Position numbers and translations under genes: made by a program
Assembly: GCA_963816185.1 (NCBI GenBank)
Contig: CAWFJJ010000024.1
Span: 416,001-480,000 of the forward strand
Length of the DNA: 64,000 nt
DNA from: Thermoanaerobaculia bacterium
GTDB lineage: Bacteria; Acidobacteriota; Thermoanaerobaculia; UBA5066
Direction of reading: 5' to 3'
Part shown: positions 1,416 through 62,326 of the stretch, one piece after another
How the letters are laid out: each line of letters begins with the position of its first letter
How positions within the stretch are numbered: the first letter of the stretch is position 1
Notes under the pieces: generated by a model
Seen by the model: the letters and a program-made list of their open reading frames with translations, nothing else
The model's database searches: none
Told to the model about the DNA's origin: nothing

Positions 1416-1455
1416 TCTAAGAAGAGAAAAGAGAAGAGAAGATTTTCTTAGAAGG
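1416..1455. repeat. Back-to-back pair of the dispersed TTCTTAGAAG motif in the aspS-aroB spacer
   Basis: TCTAAGAAG at 1416-1424 (minus-strand copy) and TTCTTAGAAGG at 1445-1455, inside a purine-rich AT island. Confidence 0.85.
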
Positions 1456-1471
1456 GGGAGAGGGGAAGGGC

Positions 1472-2614
1472 ATGCGATTGCGGAAAGCCCGGCATCTCTC
1501 CTCCTTTTCGTTTGTCGCGGGGGGCGTCCGCACGGACGTCGTCGTTGGGCCAGGCGCGCTGCGCGGCCTCGACGCGCGCCTCGGCCGCATCGCGCCGGGT
1601 CGCTGGTTTCTCATCTCTTCTAAGAAGGTCTTTCTCCTGCATGGCCACTTGCTGTCATCTGGAGGCGTTGAGCGGGTCCTCGATCCGAAGCCCCTCCTCG
1701 TCCCCGACGGCGAGGCCGCCAAGACCTGGGACGTCCTCGGGCGCCTCCTCGAAGAGCTCGCCCGGCGCGGGCTTCGGCGGGACGGTGGCATCGTCGCGCT
1801 CGGGGGCGGAACGGTGGGGGACGTCGCGGGCTTCGCGGCGGCGCTCGCTCTGCGCGGGGTGCCCGTCGTCCAGGCTCCCACGACGCTGCTCGCGGCCACC
1901 GACAGCGCCCTCGGCGGCAAGACCGCCGTGGATCTTCCTTCCGGAAAGAACCTCGCGGGCGCATTCCATGCGGCCCGCCTCATCGTCGTCGACACGTCCA
2001 CGCTCGAGACTCTTCCGCTTCGCGCGTATCGCTCCGGCCTTGCGGAGGTCGTGAAGACCTCGATGCTCGACGCGGGATTCCATCGTGCGATGGCGCGTCT
2101 CCTGGCGCCTCTCTCCTCCCGCGAACCGGTCGCCGTCTCCGAGGCCGTGCGCCGGTCTCTGGCCGTCAAGGCGCGCTCCGTGGCGCGCGATCCGTTCGAA
2201 CGGACCGGAGAGAGGGCGGCCCTGAACCTCGGACATACCGTGGGTCACGCCCTCGAGACGGCGTCCGGGCATCGCCTCGAGCATGGGGAGGCTGTCGCCT
2301 GGGGGCTGCTCGCGGCCTTGCGCCTTTCGGTTACGCGAGCGGGGCTCTCGACGCGGATGGCCGAAGCCCTCGCCGGGCGAGTTCTCCGCCTCGTGCAGCC
2401 GCCCGGGCCCTCGGTCGCAGCGTTGCGCGGGGTCCGGGCGCTTCTTCGCTCCGACAAGAAAGCCGACCGGCTCGGCCTCAAGGCGGTCGTCCTCGCGAGG
2501 CCCGGTCGGGCCATGCTCGTGAGCGCCGACGCGTCCGAGCTCATGGAGGCGTTCGAGGCCGTTCTTGCGCGGTACAATAGCGTTGGATGGGTGTTGCCCG
2601 GGTTCCGCGCCTGA
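1472..2614 (+). CDS. aroB: 3-dehydroquinate synthase
   Basis: GEAAKT, ALGGGTVGDVAGF, PTTLLA.DSALGGKT, LNLGHTVGHALE, HGEAVA. Confidence 0.93.
   Translation: MRLRKARHLSSFSFVAGGVRTDVVVGPGALRGLDARLGRIAPGRWFLISSKKVFLLHGHLLSSGGVERVLDPKPLLVPDGEAAKTWDVLGRLLEELARRGLRRDGGIVALGGGTVGDVAGFAAALALRGVPVVQAPTTLLAATDSALGGKTAVDLPSGKNLAGAFHAARLIVVDTSTLETLPLRAYRSGLAEVVKTSMLDAGFHRAMARLLAPLSSREPVAVSEAVRRSLAVKARSVARDPFERTGERAALNLGHTVGHALETASGHRLEHGEAVAWGLLAALRLSVTRAGLSTRMAEALAGRVLRLVQPPGPSVAALRGVRALLRSDKKADRLGLKAVVLARPGRAMLVSADASELMEAFEAVLARYNSVGWVLPGFRA
1617..1627 (-). repeat. Dispersed motif copy inside aroB
   Basis: CTTCTAAGAAG, read as S-S-K-K. Confidence 0.8.
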
Positions 2615-49562: not shown

Positions 49563-49573
49563 CTTCTTAGAAG
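49563..49573 (+). repeat. Dispersed motif copy overlapping the prmA ribosome-binding site
   Basis: CTTCTTAGAAG followed by GTGAATATG. Confidence 0.8.
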
Positions 49574-49579
49574 GTGAAT

Positions 49580-50428
49580 ATGGCCGAGGCGAAGGTGGGC
49601 GCCGCACGCATCGAGATTCCGGCGGCCCAGCGAGGGTCATTCGAAGAAATGCTCTTCGAAGGAATGGGCGAGCTCCAGTTCTCCTCGACCGTAGCGCCGG
49701 ATGGGCGGCTCCTCCTCTGGGTGAACTCGTCGGACGCGGCGACCGCGCTGGCGCAACTCGCCGCACTCGGCGCTCGCGGCCTTTCCACTTTCGAAGAAGA
49801 ATCCACCGACTGGGTCGCCGAGTCCGCGGCCTTGAGGAAAGCCGTTTTCGTCGACCGCTATCTCTTCGACCCGCACGAAGGGTCGCTCGCCACCGTCCCA
49901 CCTCCCGGCGTTCGCAGGCTCTTTCTTCCCGCGGTCCGCGCTTTCGGGACCGGCTCGCACGAGTCCACGCGGCTCGCCGTGCGACTCCTTCTCTCGGAGG
50001 ACCTGCGCGGCACGCGCGTCCTCGACGTCGGCTGCGGCACCGGGACGCTGGCATTCGTGGCGGCGCTGGAAGGCGCGCGCCACGTCGTGGCCTTCGATGT
50101 GGACCCTGATGCCGCTTTCGCGACACGCGAGCAGGCGCGCGCGAACGGGATTCCGCGGGTGTCGGCGTTCGCCGGTCCCCTCGACGCGGTCCCGAACGGC
50201 GCCCGATTCGACGTCGTCGTCGCGAACATGATCCACGAGGAGATCGAACCTCTCCTCCCCGCGCTCCGTGTCCACCTCGCACGCGCGGGTCGGCTTCTTT
50301 GCTCCGGGCAGCTCGGCGAGCGGAGAGGGGAGTGGGAGGATTTGCTTCGCAAAGAAGGCTTCCGGCAGATTCGCTCCATTCAGGAGAACGAATGGCTTGG
50401 GAGTGCGTGGGTTTCTTCGAATGAGTGA
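49580..50428 (+). CDS. prmA: Ribosomal protein L11 methyltransferase
   Basis: AFGTGSHESTR, VLDVGCGTG, FDVVVAN; position after dnaJ. Confidence 0.9.
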   Translation: MAEAKVGAARIEIPAAQRGSFEEMLFEGMGELQFSSTVAPDGRLLLWVNSSDAATALAQLAALGARGLSTFEEESTDWVAESAALRKAVFVDRYLFDPHEGSLATVPPPGVRRLFLPAVRAFGTGSHESTRLAVRLLLSEDLRGTRVLDVGCGTGTLAFVAALEGARHVVAFDVDPDAAFATREQARANGIPRVSAFAGPLDAVPNGARFDVVVANMIHEEIEPLLPALRVHLARAGRLLCSGQLGERRGEWEDLLRKEGFRQIRSIQENEWLGSAWVSSNE

Positions 50429-51344
50429 GAACGCCCCCTCGCGTCCGCCGCGCGTCTACGTGCCCGATCTGGCGGAGCAGCGGGTGGAGTCCGAAGAGAG
50501 ACCGGAGAAAGAGATTTCTCTTAGAAAGGAAGAAAGAGACCACGTTCGCTCGAGGAGGCTGAGGGATGGCGACGAGGTCATCGCGCTCGACGGAAAGGGC
50601 GCCAGGGCGCTGGCCGTGCTCGCGAAGGGCGGCAGTGCCATCGCCCTCTTACCTTCTAAGAAGATCTTGTCTCCCTCTTCCTCCTCGTCCTCGGCCGCGG
50701 CCTCATCTCACTCATCACACCTGCCCGGCGAGCCCGCGAACCGCGTGATTGTCGCCCTCGCGTGCGCGGAGCCGGCGCGAATCGAATGGGCCATCGAGAA
50801 GGGCACCGAGTGCGGCGCGGTGGGCTTCGTCCTCCTCGCGTGCGAGCGCTCGCAGAAGGGCCACGTAGCGGCGCTCTCGTCGCCCGCCCGTCTCGAACGC
50901 CTGCGCCGGATCGCCGTCGAGGCGACGAAGCAGTGCGACCGGACGATCGTACCTTTCGTGGAGGGTCCGAAGAGCCCGGAAGAGTTTCTTAGAAGCGGAA
51001 GAGAGATGGGCTCTTTCCGCCTCCTAGTCGCAGACCCTTCGGGAACCGCGATCGAGAACTGGCCGGTGCCCTCTCGACGCACGCGCGTGCTGTCTGAGCG
51101 AAGCGAGTTCACGCGCGAAGGAGAGGGGGCTCCGGCCGGACGAGATCGCCAAACATCGGGTCCCGGGCCGCTCCTCGGCGCGGAAGAGACTGTGATCGCT
51201 ATAGGCCCAGAGGGCGGGTTCACTCCGGCTGAAATACTCCTATTCGAAGAAAAAGGCGCTCTTCGGACCTCACTCGGCGCACGCGTCCTCCGCCTGGAGA
51301 CGGCCGTGGTCGTGGCGCTCGCTCGGTTGGTCGATCCCCTTTGA
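50421..51344 (+). CDS. rsmE: 16S rRNA m3U1498 methyltransferase (with insertions)
   Basis: EK.TE.G, EATKQC.R, IGPEGGF, LGARVLRLETA. Confidence 0.92.
   Translation: MSENAPSRPPRVYVPDLAEQRVESEERPEKEISLRKEERDHVRSRRLRDGDEVIALDGKGARALAVLAKGGSAIALLPSKKILSPSSSSSSAAASSHSSHLPGEPANRVIVALACAEPARIEWAIEKGTECGAVGFVLLACERSQKGHVAALSSPARLERLRRIAVEATKQCDRTIVPFVEGPKSPEEFLRSGREMGSFRLLVADPSGTAIENWPVPSRRTRVLSERSEFTREGEGAPAGRDRQTSGPGPLLGAEETVIAIGPEGGFTPAEILLFEEKGALRTSLGARVLRLETAVVVALARLVDPL
50511..50995. repeat. Three dispersed-motif copies inside rsmE
   Basis: GAGATTTCTCTTAGAAAGG (50511-), CTTCTAAGAAGATCT (50653-), TTCTTAGAAG (50986-50995). Confidence 0.8.
51061..51137. repeat. Palindromic element inserted in frame in rsmE
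   Basis: GGCCGG..CCCTCTC..CGCGCGTG / CACGCGCG..GAGAGGG..CCGGCC nested inverted repeats around GAGCGAAGCGAG. Confidence 0.65.
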
Positions 51345-59528: not shown

Positions 59529-62326
59529 ATGACGACTGCTGACGGCTGGACCTCGCGCAGGGTCCGCGAGACGTTCCTGTCCTTCTTCGAGGAGAAGGGC
59601 CACACGCGTGTGGCGTCCTCCTCGCTCGTGCCCGCCGAGGACCCGACGCTGCTCTTCACGAACGCGGGCATGAACCAGTTCAAGGACCTTTTCCTCGGGC
59701 GGGAGAAGCGCGCGTACGTTCGGGCGACCTCGTCGCAGAAGTGCGTGCGCGCGGGCGGGAAGCACAACGACCTCGACAACGTGGGCTACACCGCGCGGCA
59801 CCACACGTTCTTCGAGATGCTCGGAAACTTCTCCTTCGGCGATTACTTCAAGAGGGAGGCGATCGACTACGCATGGGAGCTCGTGACGTCGAACGCGTTC
59901 TACGGGCTCGACCCGTCGCGCCTCTGGGCGACGGTCTATACGGAAGACGACGAGGCGGCCGAGCTGTGGGGGCGCTACCTCCCGAAGGCGCGCATCGCCC
60001 GCTTCGGCGAGAAGGACAACTTCTGGTCGATGGGCGACACGGGGCCGTGCGGCCCGTGCAGCGAGATCCACTACGACCAGGGCGAGGGAGTGCCCGGCGA
60101 CGCGACGCCGAACGGCACCGGCGACCGCGTCATGGAGATCTGGAATCTCGTCTTCATGCAGTTCGACCGCGACGCCTCGGGAAAGATGACCCCGCTGCCG
60201 AAACCGAGCGTCGACACGGGCGCCGGCCTCGAGCGCATCACGGCGATCCTCGAGGGCAAGAACAACAACTACGACACGGACCTCTTCGCGCCGATCATCA
60301 AGAAGATCGAGGAGATCTCGGGTCAGAAATACGTCGGCGGCATGGCCGTCGAAGATGCGCCGTTCCGCGTGATTGCAGATCACGCGCGAGCGGCGACGAT
60401 GCTCATCGCGGACGGTGTGATCCCTTCGAATGAGGGAAGGGGATACGTCCTGCGCCGGATCATCCGGCGCGCCATTCGATATGGAAGAAGACTCGGCCTC
60501 GTCGATCCTTTCCTCTTCAAGCTCGTGCCGGGGGTAACGGAGGCTCTGAAGATTTTCTTCGAAGGTGAAGAGATTCGCGGCGCAAAGGCGATGTTTGGCC
60601 TGATCGACGAAGAGGAAGGCCCGATCGGCGCAGAAGAAGTTCGTTTTGCGAAAACGATGACGGCCGGTGCCGACCGCGTTGGCGAAGCGATTTCCGACGT
60701 GCGACGGCGGGGCGAGACATCGCTTTCAGGCGCCGCAGCGTTCCGCCTCTACGACACGCACGGCGTTCCTCTCGAGCTCATCGAAGAAATCTCTTCTGAC
60801 GAAGGGGTTCAAGTCGACCGGTCCGGCTTCGACGTCGAGCTCGAGAGGGCCCGCGAGCGGAGCAAGGGAGCCTCGAAGTTCGAGCACGAAGGAGGCCTGC
60901 CGGCCGACGAGCAGATCGACGCTTCATGGGCGACCGAATTCCGCGGATATCCCGAGCAGGATTTCGTGCGGCTGTAGGCGCGAAAGTGCTCGGTCCTGCT
61001 TTCTAGCGGAGCGCGGCGAGAGGGTGGATTTTCTTAAAGTGGGGAGAAGGGCTGGTGCGTCACGGACCGCACCGTCTTCTATCCGGAGGGCGGCGGTCAG
61101 GTGGCCGACCAGGGAGAGATTCTCTGGTTTGCCGAGAGCGGGGGCGACGGGCGCGCGGACGGTCATCGACGCGCGGCGCGCCCCGAATGGGAAGTCCGTC
61201 CTACACCTTCTAAGAATCTCCAGCGGTTCCCTTGCGGTGGGTCAACTCGTGCGTATGAAGCGTGGACGAATGGACCCGCCGCAAGACGCAGGCAAACCAT
61301 ACCGGGACTCACCTCCTCCACGCCGCGCTGCGGAAGGTGCTCGGCGAAAGCGTTCGGCAGATGGGCTCGCTCGTCGCGCCCGACCGCCTGCGCTTCGACT
61401 ACGCGGCCTCGCGCCCGACGACCGCCACCGAAGTCCGTGAGATCGAGCGACTCGTGAACGAGGAGATCCTGCGGGACCGCGAGGTCGGCAAGGCCGTCAT
61501 GTCGATGGACGACGCGAAGAAGAAGGGCGCGATGATGTTCTTCGGCGAGAAATACGGCGAGCAGGTCCGCGTCGTCGACGTGCCGGGATTCTCGACGGAG
61601 CTCTGCGGCGGCTGCCACGTCGGCCGTACGGGCGAGATCGGCGCCTTCAAGGTGATCTCCGACAAGGGCCTCGCGGCCGGCGTCCGACGAATGGAGGCGG
61701 TCACCTCGTTGAATGCGGTCGAAAGGCTCCAGAAGGACGAAGAAATCCTGGCGAATATGGCGCAGACGGCGAACGTCCCTCCCGACGAGCTGCCGGCGAA
61801 GCTGAAGGAGGCGCTGGATTCTCTTAGAAGGAAAGAGAAGGAGATCGCCGCCCTCAAACGCGACCTCGCGCTGGCTGGCATAGGTGCGGGCGCCGGCCCC
61901 TCGAGCGCGCAGCCGGGCGCGGCGCCTTCTGTACATTCACCTTCTAAGAAATCCTCCTCTTCGGACGCAGCGGCTGAGGAGGGCCTGCACGAGATCAACG
62001 GCATCAAGGTCCTCGCACGCCGCGTGCCGTCGCTCCCGACGAACGAGCTCCGTAACCTCGCGGACACGTTCCGGAGCAAGCTGAAGTCGGGCGTCGTGCT
62101 GCTCGGAACCGAGCTCGAAGGCAAGGTCACGCTGCTCGCGGCGGTCACGTCGGACCTCGTAGCCCGGGTCTCCGCGAACGAGCTGGCTCAGGTCATGGCA
62201 CCGGCCGTCGGGGGCAGGGGCGGCGGAAGGCCGGACCTCGCCCAGGCCGGCGGCAAAGACGCGGCCCAGATCGAGCCGGCTCTCGCGCTGGGCGTCGCGA
62301 AGGTGCGAGAGAGGCTTTCCGCCTGA
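59529..62326 (+). CDS. alaS: Alanine--tRNA ligase; reading frame broken by several indels at about 60970-61265
   Basis: [32 protein letters not shown]; [11 protein letters not shown] in a shifted frame; [27 protein letters not shown]. Confidence 0.93.
61207..61950. repeat. Three dispersed-motif copies inside alaS
   Basis: CTTCTAAGAA (61207-61216), TCTTAGAAGG (61822-61831), CTTCTAAGAA (61941-61950). Confidence 0.8.

What the first reader, a model, noticed from the sequence alone, without database searches (positions are those of the whole stretch)
50470..51185. RsmE inflated by several insertions, each tied to a motif copy or palindrome
This RsmE is 307 aa versus roughly 240-250 for typical members. 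The extra segments are RVESEERPEKEISLRKE, LPSKKILSPSSSSSSAAASSHSSH and WPVPSRRTRVLSERSEFTREGEGAPAGRDRQTSGPGP. The first two contain the motif. The third is a nested inverted repeat (51061-51137) around GAGCGAAGCGAG. The frame stays open throughout. This parallels Rickettsia palindromic elements that create new peptide segments in housekeeping proteins.
Basis: partly seen in the sequence, partly recalled or inferred. Interest (0 to 1): 0.7.

Follow-up and report, generated by a model that had tools for sequence, protein, structure and literature searches.

The report
Mobile repeats translated inside RsmE
A ribosomal-RNA methyltransferase gene of a soil acidobacterium is about 50 codons too long because two kinds of short repeated DNA sit in it in frame and are read as floppy surface loops, much as in Rickettsia, and one of them is a hairpin whose tip is identical in very distant bacteria.

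Summary
RsmE (window 50421-51344, 307 aa) is a single-copy SPOUT methyltransferase. It is longer than its congeners (249-291 aa), its order-level outgroups (about 246-253 aa as trimmed) and solved RsmE chains (228-268 aa).

Two of the three "extra" segments are true insertions. Segment 2, the Ser-rich linker at aa 77-100, is built on the reverse copy of a genus-specific motif, TTTCTTAGAAGG. This motif has 149 exact copies in the genome and occurs mostly as convergent inverted pairs. Segment 3 (aa 214-250) holds a 77-nt hairpin. The hairpin has 13 copies in the genome and is present at this site in only 4 of 20 congeners, once inverted. It also lies in frame in DNA polymerase III alpha.

Segment 1 is mostly ordinary conserved sequence that carries a motif copy.

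AlphaFold gives a confident RsmE core, with both true inserts disordered.

The Rickettsia-palindromic-element parallel holds. Beyond the finding, the hairpin's 20-nt tip (CTGTYTGAGCGAAGCGAGTT) recurs exactly at the apex of hairpins with unrelated, covarying arms in many phyla. It matches no Rfam family. How either element moves is unknown.

The parts
50421..51344 (+). rsmE coding sequence, 307 aa. Its ATG overlaps the stop of the upstream prmA-like gene.
   Evidence: Foldseek matches to solved RsmE chains at TMt 0.74-0.82.
50505..50539 (+). Motif copy 1 in (+) orientation, core CTTAGAA at 50520-50526, read as EISLRKEER. It overlies conserved N-terminal residues and is not an insertion.
   Evidence: The core is present at the same site in 7 of 20 congener genes. 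Modelled as a confident helix or strand.
50644..50720 (-). Motif copy 2 in (-) orientation, core TTCTAAG at 50654-50660, with its pyrimidine-rich flank. It is read as LPSKKILSPSSSSSSAAASSHSSH (aa 77-100) and forms the insert in the PUA-SPOUT linker.
   Evidence: Absent in 5 of 5 outgroups and variable in length in the genus. The exact core is present in 10 of 20 congeners. pLDDT is below 50 for residues 81-102.
50976..51008 (+). Motif copy 3 in (+) orientation, core CTTAGAA at 50988-50994, read as EEFLRSG with rare codons TTT CTT AGA. It overlies a conserved helix.
   Evidence: The core is present in 10 of 20 congeners.
51061..51137 (+). 77-nt hairpin repeat with apex 51090-51109 (CTGTCTGAGCGAAGCGAGTT), read as PVPSRRTRVLSERSEFTREGEGAPA.
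   Evidence: There are 13 copies in G000. At this site it is found in G000, G012 and G009, and inverted in G003. It is absent in 16 of 20 congeners.
51138..51190 (+). Extra stretch after the hairpin (GRDRQTSGPGPLLGAEE). Its part at 51159-51182 also lies next to another hairpin copy (C21:18529-18552) and next to the inverted hairpin in the G003 RsmE.
   Evidence: pLDDT is below 50.
51243..51251 (-). Degenerate motif copy 4 (TTCGAAGAA variant), read within LLFEEK. It is the convergent partner of copy 3. In congeners it is followed by the typical pyrimidine tract.
   Evidence: The variant TTTCTTCGAA has 152 copies in the genome.

Best explanation
rsmE of this uncultured Acidobacteriota genome carries two kinds of short non-coding repeat DNA that stayed in frame and are translated.

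(1) A genus-specific element. It has about 20-30-nt inverted arms (consensus roughly rGATTTCTTAGAAGGTGAATG) with purine-rich outer flanks. It normally occurs as a convergent pair around a variable GC-rich interior. In (+) orientation it reads F-L-R-R/K or F-L-E-G. In (-) orientation it reads P-S-K-K followed by a Ser run. rsmE holds two such pairs. The (-) arm of the first pair created the Ser-rich linker between the PUA and methyltransferase domains.

(2) A 77-nt GC-rich hairpin with a fixed 20-nt apex. It lies between the arms of the second pair and adds 26 residues in the loop just before the GPEGG strand.

Why the copies persist. Four of six reading frames of each element lack stops. The copies survive only where the fold tolerates disordered surface loops, so the enzyme core is intact.

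SHOWN: the repeats are dispersed; the hairpin is patchy among congeners and occurs in both orientations; the same elements lie in frame in other housekeeping genes; outgroups lack them; the inserts are predicted to be disordered.

INFERRED: the elements arrived by insertion (transposition or recombination through an unidentified trans-acting activity); the protein is still active.
For: The gene is RsmE and is single-copy.
- Family and fold matches.
- The only other G000 matches to the protein fall in residues 184-250, and those checked are other hairpin copies.

Ortholog alignment of 20 congeners and 5 outgroups.
- Insert 2 is absent in 5 of 5 outgroups and variable in length in the genus.
- Insert 3 is present only in G000, G012 and G009, and reversed in G003.
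- At the DNA level it is the same 77-nt unit at the same place.
- In all four species it keeps a -45.6 to -52.6 kcal/mol fold, with compensatory changes in the outer stem.

The hairpin is a dispersed repeat.
- 13 copies in G000.
- 1-10 copies in 16 of 24 other congeners.
- It is in frame in DNA polymerase III alpha (HHH_6 domain) of G012, G022 and G000, using two different frames.
- 4 of 6 frames are open.

The motif is a genus-wide repeat.
- 449 CTTAGAA cores against about 137 expected from base composition.
- 149 exact 12-mers in G000. All 16 other congeners searched hold 45-177 copies; 43 of 44 other genomes of the order hold 0-1.
- 81 of 120 adjacent +/- neighbours lie within 250 nt, with a mode at 72-76 nt. 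Only 3 of 122 -/+ neighbours do.
- 54 units lie in read-through coding frames and give recurrent FLEG, FLRR, PSKKS(n) and LLRN peptides.

A second housekeeping host shows the same pattern.
- In RNase R the pair element is present in 16 of 16 congeners, with a 6-50-aa variable interior.
- It is absent in 11 of 11 outgroups. Two of those outgroups, G025 and G030, are unpublished genomes.

The hairpin sits between motif arms in intergenic copies too.
- Examples are C8:138462-138623 and C28:225100-225252.

Structure prediction.
- Mean pLDDT is 80.4 and pTM 0.76.
- Only residues 1-3, 81-102 and 218-253 fall below 50.
Against: - No transposase, target-site duplication or autonomous copy was found.
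  - No Y1/RAYT gene (PF01797) is present in G000, which is 95% complete.
  - No recurrent long element is bounded by the arms.
- Interiors of motif pairs are neither conserved nor more foldable than random DNA: mean z is -0.26 against -0.21 for controls. This is unlike a classical MITE.
- Motif copies 1-3 sit at orthologous positions in many congeners. Copies 1 and 3 overlie conserved residues. This fits an old event or selection on the DNA word as well as it fits mobility.
- No empty-versus-filled site within one species was seen.
- Translation and enzyme activity are not shown.
- The coding-context counts rest on a crude GC3-based frame test of my own.
Confidence: 0.75

Rival explanations
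1. The TTTCTTAGAAGG word is not a mobile element. It is a functional DNA signal of this genus, such as an uptake-sequence-like word or the binding site of a nucleoid or regulatory protein. It accumulates and is kept by selection or biased recombination, also inside genes. The RsmE linker is then a by-product of keeping the word.
For: - It is genus-wide at similar copy numbers: 45-177 in each of 16 congeners.
- It is conserved at orthologous sites in rsmE and RNase R.
- It occurs in coding and non-coding DNA.
- Copies overlie pre-existing codons using rare codons.
- Interiors between paired copies are unrelated.
- No transposase was found.
Against: - Density is about one per 11 kb, roughly ten times lower than I recall for known uptake sequences.
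- There is a strong preference for convergent pairs with a modal spacing of 72-76 nt.
- The arms extend over 20-30 nt with purine tracts.
- Whole pair-plus-interior units behave as insertions absent from outgroups.
- No binding protein or competence link was tested.
Confidence: 0.2
2. The inserts are ordinary lineage-specific loop expansions or low-complexity slippage of RsmE. Their resemblance to repeats elsewhere is incidental.
For: - Ser-run length varies among congeners, as in microsatellite slippage.
- Insert 1 is indeed only a small, variable loop.
Against: - The 77-nt hairpin is 93-100% identical over 49-71 nt to 9 of the other sites in the genome; the rest match over shorter or more diverged stretches.
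- It occurs inverted at the same site in G003.
- The motif is 30-fold over chance in the window.
- The same peptides recur in dozens of unrelated proteins.
Confidence: 0.03
3. The hairpin is kept inside rsmE because it acts as an RNA or single-stranded-DNA element there, for example in mRNA stability, translational pausing, or as a protein-binding site. On this view it is not a neutral passenger.
For: - Stem pairing is maintained by compensatory changes between species at the same site.
- Arms covary across 124 copies from many phyla: 69.3% of cells are paired against 42.6% in shuffles, and 0 of 500 shuffles reach the observed value.
- The apex is invariant and contains GCGAAGC, a very stable DNA mini-hairpin (PMC13037366, passages read).
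Against: - 16 of 20 congeners do without it in rsmE.
- It works in either orientation and in two frames.
- Palindrome arms can stay complementary through repair or conversion without any selection.
- No expression data exist.
Confidence: 0.12
4. Assembly artefact: a repeat was mis-joined into rsmE in a long-read metagenome assembly.
For: - Earlier notes on this genome report single-base indel errors (e1-1916802).
- Public soil contigs break at the hairpin.
Against: - The same insertion lies at the same site in three other species' genomes.
- The reading frame is intact.
Confidence: 0.02

Closest known systems
Rickettsia palindromic elements (RPE; Ogata et al. 2000, as summarised in the review PMC10969869, passages read)
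   Same: - Short palindromic repeats are inserted in frame in unrelated housekeeping genes.
- They encode a recurrent peptide.
- They lie in positions compatible with the fold.
- They occur in both intergenic and genic sites.
   Different: - The host is a free-living, high-GC soil Acidobacteriota rather than a reduced intracellular alphaproteobacterium.
- The sequences are unrelated.
- Only 13 copies of the hairpin exist in this genome.
- The hairpin's apex is shared across phyla, which is not reported for RPEs.
Intragenic REP elements of the GTAG and CGTC superfamilies (Di Nocera et al. 2013, PMC3733652; abstract, the CGTC section and passages read)
   Same: - Small palindromic repeats, often as inverted dimers 20-100 bp apart.
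- Mostly intergenic.
- Some lie inside genes, encoding 20-30 aa, notably in replication and repair genes. Here the hosts include DNA polymerase III alpha and UvrD.
   Different: - There is no GTAG tag. The stems are not the 8-9 bp with 4-5-nt loops of CGTC REPs.
- The loop here is 20 nt and is the conserved part.
- No RAYT gene is present in this genome.
REPINs
   Same: Two conserved inverted units at a preferred spacing with a less conserved middle, as in the TTTCTTAGAAGG pairs with their mode at 72-76 nt.
   Different: - Interiors here do not fold better than random DNA.
- There is no RAYT.
- Many copies lie inside genes.
TwoAYGGAY RNA motif, Rfam RF01731, in its extended form (bioRxiv 10.64898/2026.09.22.753630, passages read)
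   Same: - A multi-copy intergenic structured element defined by conserved terminal-loop sequences.
- Copy number is highly variable.
- It often occurs as divergent doublets about 250 bp apart. Here there are (-,+) pairs 230-340 nt apart in Parabacteroides, Ralstonia and Variovorax.
- Function is unknown.
   Different: - The loop sequence differs.
- cmscan of the window and of 20 loci gave no RF01731 match.
DNA uptake sequences
   Same: A genus-specific over-represented word with extended flanks, found inside genes in permissive positions and often as inverted pairs.
   Different: - Density is about ten times lower.
- Pairs are 38-224 nt apart rather than forming a tight terminator stem.
- No link to competence was tested.

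Membership tests
RsmE (16S rRNA m3U1498 methyltransferase, SPOUT class) | Sequence match to the RsmE methyltransferase domain and the N-terminal PUA-like domain | tested here: met
   PF04452 at 5.5e-34 over residues 107-303. PF20260 (PUA_4) at 6.6e-05, 23.4 bits, just under its 23.9 cut-off. TIGR00046 at 104.5 bits against a cut-off of 41.
RsmE (16S rRNA m3U1498 methyltransferase, SPOUT class) | RsmE fold (PUA plus knotted SPOUT domain) | tested here: met
   AF2 model with pLDDT 80.4. Foldseek top hits are all RsmE chains (1vhk, 4l69, 5o95, 4j3c, 1nxz, 5vm8, 4e8b) at TMt 0.74-0.82.
RsmE (16S rRNA m3U1498 methyltransferase, SPOUT class) | Methylation of U1498 of 16S rRNA | not testable with these tools
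   The G262-P263-E264-G265-G266 block and other core residues are invariant in 25 sequences. Activity needs an assay.
RPE-like or intragenic-REP-like in-frame palindromic insertion | The inserted DNA is a member of a dispersed repeat family in the same genome | tested here: met
   Hairpin: 13 copies. Motif: 449 cores and 149 exact 12-mers.
RPE-like or intragenic-REP-like in-frame palindromic insertion | The insert is absent from orthologs lacking the element, and the reading frame is preserved | tested here: met
   The hairpin is absent in 16 of 20 congeners and 5 of 5 outgroups. The linker is absent in 5 of 5 outgroups. The frame is open.
RPE-like or intragenic-REP-like in-frame palindromic insertion | The same element lies in frame in other, unrelated genes | tested here: met
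   Hairpin in DNA polymerase III alpha of three species. Motif pair in RNase R, UvrD/PcrA and the AlaRS C-terminus, among others.
RPE-like or intragenic-REP-like in-frame palindromic insertion | Inserts map to surface loops compatible with the fold | tested here: met
   pLDDT is below 50 only at residues 1-3, 81-102 and 218-253. This is a prediction, not a solved structure.
REP/REPIN mobilised by a RAYT (Y1 HUH transposase) | A RAYT (PF01797) gene in the genome, typically flanked by the repeats | tested here: not met
   0 matches in G000 at 94.9% completeness. The control search found the family in 6 of 14 named genomes.
REP/REPIN mobilised by a RAYT (Y1 HUH transposase) | A conserved GTAG (or CGTC) tag at the foot of a short stem-loop | tested here: not met
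   There is no GTAG. The stem-loop dimensions differ from those given in PMC3733652.
[quoted passage not shown] | Terminal inverted repeats | tested here: met
   Convergent arms of about 20-30 nt in 81 pairs.
[quoted passage not shown] | A conserved internal sequence, target-site duplication, and a parent IS with the same ends | tested here: not met
   Interiors are unrelated. No duplication was noticed. No long element with these ends and a constant length was found among 43 candidates. The search was limited.
Any Rfam 15 RNA family | A covariance-model match | tested here: not met
   Only chance-level miRNA-precursor matches, in the window region and in 20 loci from other phyla.

The most novel reading that the evidence does not exclude
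The 77-nt hairpin may be the local form of an undescribed repeat family found across bacteria. Its only fixed part is a 20-nt apex, CTGTYTGAGCGAAGCGAGTT, which contains the ultra-stable GCGAAGC mini-hairpin inside the mirror repeat GAGCGAAGCGAG. The arms are free to change as long as they pair. This pattern points to a widely shared factor that reads the tip of an extruded single-stranded DNA or RNA hairpin. The genus-specific TTTCTTAGAAGG arms would then be the local 'foot' of the same structure. In-frame copies in RsmE and DNA polymerase III would be its collateral.
Probability: 0.35. Interest if true: 0.8.

Novelty: new variant of a known kind. Interest (0 to 1): 0.6.

Why it matters
- It extends the RPE phenomenon, selfish or structural repeats written into essential proteins, to a free-living, GC-rich soil phylum.
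- It shows that low-complexity linkers such as PSKK(S)n and FLEGEE, found in dozens of proteins of a whole genus, come from one DNA word. Annotators and structure predictors should know this.
- It gives a natural map of insertion-tolerant loops in RsmE, RNase R, UvrD and DNA polymerase III alpha.
- The hairpin's invariant tip across phyla, with freely covarying arms and no Rfam family, is a concrete handle for finding the factor that reads it.

Tried and rejected
- Rfam scans: the rsmE region and 20 hairpin loci from other phyla gave nothing above chance.
- Y1/RAYT transposase in G000: none found.
- Search for an autonomous element bounded by the motif arms, 500-4000 nt apart: 43 candidates, with no recurrent length or extended arm identity.
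- Genes between inverted hairpin pairs in three sister-genus loci: by eye, and without a family search, they looked like unrelated ordinary genes (a cytochrome-bd-subunit-II-like membrane protein, a large membrane protein, a GNAT-like protein). No transposase was seen.
- Test of whether interiors of motif pairs are hairpins: no. One search timed out and was rerun with fewer shuffles.
- Test of whether the motif is a ribosome-binding or start signal: only 35 of 448 oriented copies precede a same-strand coding region, and there is no fixed offset to a start codon.
- Public reads: no RNA holder is listed. Four soil-metagenome contig sets were laid; none bridges the hairpin and no joined form was seen, so nothing can be said on presence/absence or expression.
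- Viral contigs: only 6 exact apex matches, three of them within 100 bases of a contig end, so there is no sign of a phage vehicle.
- Literature: the string GAGCGAAGCGAG returned 4 unrelated papers. GCGAAGC + hairpin + repeat returned only mini-hairpin chemistry. A search on conserved loop, covarying, intergenic, repeat, hairpin and phyla (at least 5 of the 6 terms) returned no description of this element in the listed titles and abstract openings. Two 2026 language-model preprints in that listing were not opened. bioRxiv supplements are closed and could hold it.
- Earlier-findings look-up by sequence: nothing.
- One search failed on out-of-range coordinates. The stretch was fetched as a locus instead.
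Full report
WHAT IS THERE.
- The ORF at window 50421-51344 (+) is open and encodes 307 aa. Its ATG overlaps the stop of the upstream prmA-like gene.
- It is RsmE by sequence: PF04452 at 5.5e-34, a near-threshold PUA_4 match, and TIGR00046 at 104.5 bits against a cut-off of 41.
- It is RsmE by predicted fold. The AlphaFold2 model from a 25-sequence alignment has mean pLDDT 80.4 and pTM 0.76. Its best Foldseek matches are all solved RsmE chains, at TM-score 0.74-0.82 normalised to the target.
- Solved RsmE chains are 228-268 aa.
- The genome (G000, 5.09 Mb, 67% G+C, 30 contigs, 94.9% complete) has no second RsmE with this query. The only other matches fall in residues 184-250, and those checked are copies of the hairpin described below.
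- A named record carrying the same hairpin is titled 'uncultured Acidobacteriota bacterium'. Earlier notes of this scan also place the genome in Acidobacteriota.

ORTHOLOG ALIGNMENT. I aligned complete RsmE genes from 20 genomes of the same genus (G000 included) and 5 genomes of two other families of the order. Five further congener loci were truncated or frame-broken and were left out. Their search rows show no match to residues 214-246 at the rsmE locus. Genus members are 249-291 aa apart from G000 at 307 aa. Outgroups are about 246-253 aa as I trimmed them.
- Segment 1 (aa 21-37) is mostly not an insertion. EISLRKEE aligns with the outgroups' TLQLSREE. Only about 8 residues are extra and their number varies in the genus. 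The model shows a confident helix at residues 17-26.
- Segment 2 (aa 77-100, LPSKKILSPSSSSSSAAASSHSSH) is absent from all 5 outgroups. It is present in most congeners with a Ser run of variable length.
- Segment 3 (aa 214-250) is absent from all 5 outgroups and from 16 of 20 congeners. G012 and G009 carry PVPSRRTRVL(S/F)ERSEFTREG(E/A)GA at the same place. G003 carries the reverse-complement reading, PSPSRVNSLRSDSTRVRRG.
- Against B. subtilis YqeU (1vhk), the query has about 26 extra residues before the methyltransferase domain and about 29 extra between residues 192 and 256.
- The model has pLDDT below 50 only at residues 1-3, 81-102 and 218-253. The two true inserts are therefore predicted to be disordered loops on an intact core.
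- The GPEGG block and other core residues are invariant in all 25 sequences.

THE HAIRPIN.
- Positions 51061-51137 form a 77-nt hairpin with a 20-nt apex at 51090-51109. A 91-nt stretch around it folds at -54.1 kcal/mol, z = -4.9.
- BLASTN finds it at 12 further sites in G000. The inner part (CGACGCACGCGCGTG, apex, CACGCGCGAAGGAG) is nearly identical at most of them. The outer stems differ between copies but stay complementary.
- The four species with the element in rsmE all keep a strong fold, -45.6 to -52.6 kcal/mol. G009 differs from G000 by compensatory changes in the outer stem.
- Four of its six reading frames are open.
- Two forward frames are used in nature. RVLSERSEF appears in RsmE and in the G022 DNA polymerase III alpha. 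ACCLSEASS appears in the DNA polymerase III alpha of G012 and of G000 itself. In that protein the element lies in the HHH_6 domain at one site in three species.
- Two other apparent in-frame cases, upstream of SerS in G012 and at the start of a membrane protein in G021, are probably upstream of the true start codons.
- The exact apex occurs in 16 of 24 other congeners at 1-10 copies. It occurs in 40 of 57 genomes of the family, but in 0 of 56 and 0 of 7 genomes of the two other families of the order.

THE MOTIF.
- CTTAGAA occurs 14 times in the window and 449 times in G000. About 137 are expected from base composition. Other 7-mers of the same composition occur 18-268 times, apart from one that overlaps the motif.
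- It has a strand-specific context: purine-rich, then ATTT, CTTAGAA, GG, k, g, AA, purine-rich.
- The 12-mer TTTCTTAGAAGG has 149 copies. A TTTCTTCGAA variant has 152.
- The 12-mer is a property of the genus. All 16 other congeners searched hold 45-177 copies, with reversed-word controls at 0-3. Of 44 other genomes of the order, one (G054) has 16 and the rest have 0-1.
- Copies are mostly arranged as convergent inverted pairs. 81 of 120 adjacent +/- neighbours are at most 250 nt apart, with a mode at 72-76 nt (23 pairs at 71-76). Only 3 of 122 -/+ neighbours are that close.
- The arms extend to about 20-30 nt (roughly rGATTTCTTAGAAGGTGAATG). The interiors are GC-rich and unrelated to one another. 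They are no more foldable than random genomic DNA: mean z is -0.26 against -0.21, by mononucleotide shuffles.
- Oriented copies mostly have coding DNA outside and non-coding DNA inside the pair.
- By a crude GC3-based frame test, 13 of 81 pairs and 41 of 287 single copies lie in read-through frames. Their translations are stereotyped: FLEG(E), [FL]LR[RK], PSKKS(n), LLR[NRK]. This follows because one frame of each orientation contains TAG or TAA.
- Hosts include RNase R, a UvrD/PcrA helicase and the AlaRS C-terminus (window 61823-61949), among others.
- In RNase R, all 16 congeners aligned carry the element, with an interior of about 6 to 50 aa. All 11 outgroups lack it. 27 of 30 loci could be aligned. 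Two outgroup rows, G025 and G030, are from unpublished genomes.

HOW THE PIECES FIT IN rsmE.
- The gene holds two convergent pairs.
- Copy 1 (+, 50520) and copy 2 (-, 50654) bracket the PUA core.
- Copy 3 (+, 50988) and a degenerate copy 4 (-, TTCGAAGAA at 51243) bracket the variable loop and the GPEGG strand. In congeners, copy 4 is followed by the usual pyrimidine tract.
- The hairpin lies between copies 3 and 4.
- The same order, arm then hairpin then arm, is seen in intergenic DNA at C8:138462-138623 and C28:225100-225252. At least 8 of the 14 full hairpins have a motif or variant within about 150 nt.
- Copies 1 and 3 overlie residues present in every RsmE and use rare codons (TTT CTT AGA). 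The exact cores of copies 1, 2 and 3 are found at the same sites in 7, 10 and 10 of the 20 congener genes (G000 included).
- The motif-bearing DNA in rsmE is therefore old, predating much of the genus. The hairpin is a later, patchy addition.
- G000 and G003 also share a 24-nt stretch after the hairpin. It keeps its orientation while the hairpin is flipped between the two species. The same stretch abuts another hairpin copy at C21. This could reflect in-place inversion of the palindrome or independent insertions; I cannot tell which.

BEYOND THE FINDING.
About 2 would be expected by chance for a word of this length in 596 Gb (my estimate).
- The genomes include Variovorax, Ralstonia, Parabacteroides, Lachnospiraceae, Nitrospirales, Flavobacteriia, Saccharibacteria and others.
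- In nearly all of them the word sits at the tip of a long hairpin whose arms are unrelated between taxa.
- On 124 distinct copies, the 10 positions next to the apex pair in 69.3% of cells against 42.6% in shuffles (0 of 500 reach it). With slid partners the figure is at most 49.7%. All 10 pairs show changes on both sides. The invariance of the apex in this set is by construction of the search.
- Five complete genomes hold 9-35 copies of the 15-nt core. These are often (-,+) pairs 230-340 nt apart, which in Parabacteroides are parts of roughly 500-nt intergenic palindromes.
- The core GAGCGAAGCGAG is a mirror repeat. It contains GCGAAGC, described as an extraordinarily stable DNA mini-hairpin found at single-strand priming origins (PMC13037366, abstract and passages).
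- No Rfam 15 family matches.
- The literature searches found no description.
Its sequence is not shown, so identity with this family is likely but untested.
- The nearest printed analogue in behaviour is the TwoAYGGAY family, which has conserved loops, many copies and divergent doublets about 250 bp apart (10.64898/2026.09.22.753630, passages). It is not a match.

MECHANISM AND LIMITS.
- Shown: both elements are dispersed repeats; they occur in frame in several housekeeping proteins; they are absent from outgroups; the hairpin varies in presence and orientation among species; both true inserts fall in predicted disordered loops.
- Inferred: they arrived by insertion and persist because they are neutral there. 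How they move is unknown.
- There is no Y1/RAYT gene and no autonomous copy. No transposase was seen among the genes between hairpin pairs in sister genera. No phage enrichment was seen. No within-species empty site could be examined.
- For the 12-mer, a reading as a selected DNA signal remains a serious rival. It is an alternative explanation for its constancy across the genus and its orthologous conservation.
- Translation and activity of this RsmE are untested.

COMPARISON AND VERDICT.
- In-frame palindromic repeats in essential genes are known. Examples are RPEs (review PMC10969869, passages) and intragenic GTAG/CGTC REPs, which often lie in replication and repair genes (PMC3733652, abstract, one section and passages).
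- This case works like those but belongs to neither family by the features tested: there is no GTAG or CGTC-type stem-loop and no RAYT.
- It is a new variant of a known kind, in a phylum where I found no report of it.
- It has two unusual features: a genus-wide arm motif that writes stereotyped linkers into many proteins, and a hairpin whose tip is shared across phyla.

Noticed in passing
G000 C24:122239-125987 (outside the window, same contig): The DNA polymerase III alpha gene that carries the hairpin in frame appears as two overlapping ORFs in different frames (123681-125987 and 122239-123969). This may be one of the single-base assembly errors reported for this genome, or a real frameshift.
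   Followed up: partly
G000 C24:~122900-123000, C30:~540050-540110, C25:~105010-105090: A second palindromic repeat family (arms TGTCAAGGG ... CCCTTGACA around a GC-rich centre) occurs inside motif-pair elements. One copy lies right after the hairpin in DNA polymerase III alpha.
   Followed up: no
window 61823-61949: A complete convergent motif pair lies in frame in the C-terminal part of alanyl-tRNA synthetase, between tRNA_SAD and DHHA1. It reads ...[10 protein letters not shown]...SPSKKSSSS.
   Followed up: partly
window 49566-49572: A (+) motif copy directly overlaps the predicted start of the prmA-like gene (CTTAGAAGGTGAATATG). Genome-wide, no fixed offset to start codons was found.
   Followed up: partly
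window 1447-1624: An intergenic convergent motif pair 171 nt apart with long purine-rich outer flanks. It is a typical non-coding member of the family.
   Followed up: no
G000 C2:6594, C24:337930, C24:734444, C25:393603, C25:610959: Five or more identical copies of a 55-nt context (GAGAAGATCGAGCACCTTAGAAATACC...) contain the 7-mer by chance. They probably mark a multi-copy gene such as an insertion sequence.
   Followed up: no
G000 C28:169042-169147: Two diverged hairpin copies lie in tandem, 86 nt apart, downstream of one motif copy. This is the only tandem arrangement seen in this genome.
   Followed up: no
G054 (sister genus g11): This is the only genome outside the genus with a clear excess of the 12-mer (16 copies, controls 0). 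It may mark the origin or a transfer of the element.
   Followed up: no
L057, L064, L069, L084, L093, L111, L120, L122, L141 (Nitrospirales): In Nitrospirales the hairpin with the same apex is part of a roughly 190-nt multi-hairpin unit. The unit is conserved in sequence between species and includes further GAAA/GAAG-capped hairpins.
   Followed up: partly
L033-L153, arms of hairpins in other phyla: On the apex strand, TTAG occurs 108 times against 60 for CTAA in the flanks. It is concentrated in the arms 20-60 nt from the apex. Several Bacillota copies have CTTAG on the same strand in both arms, which hints at strand-specific recognition.
   Followed up: partly
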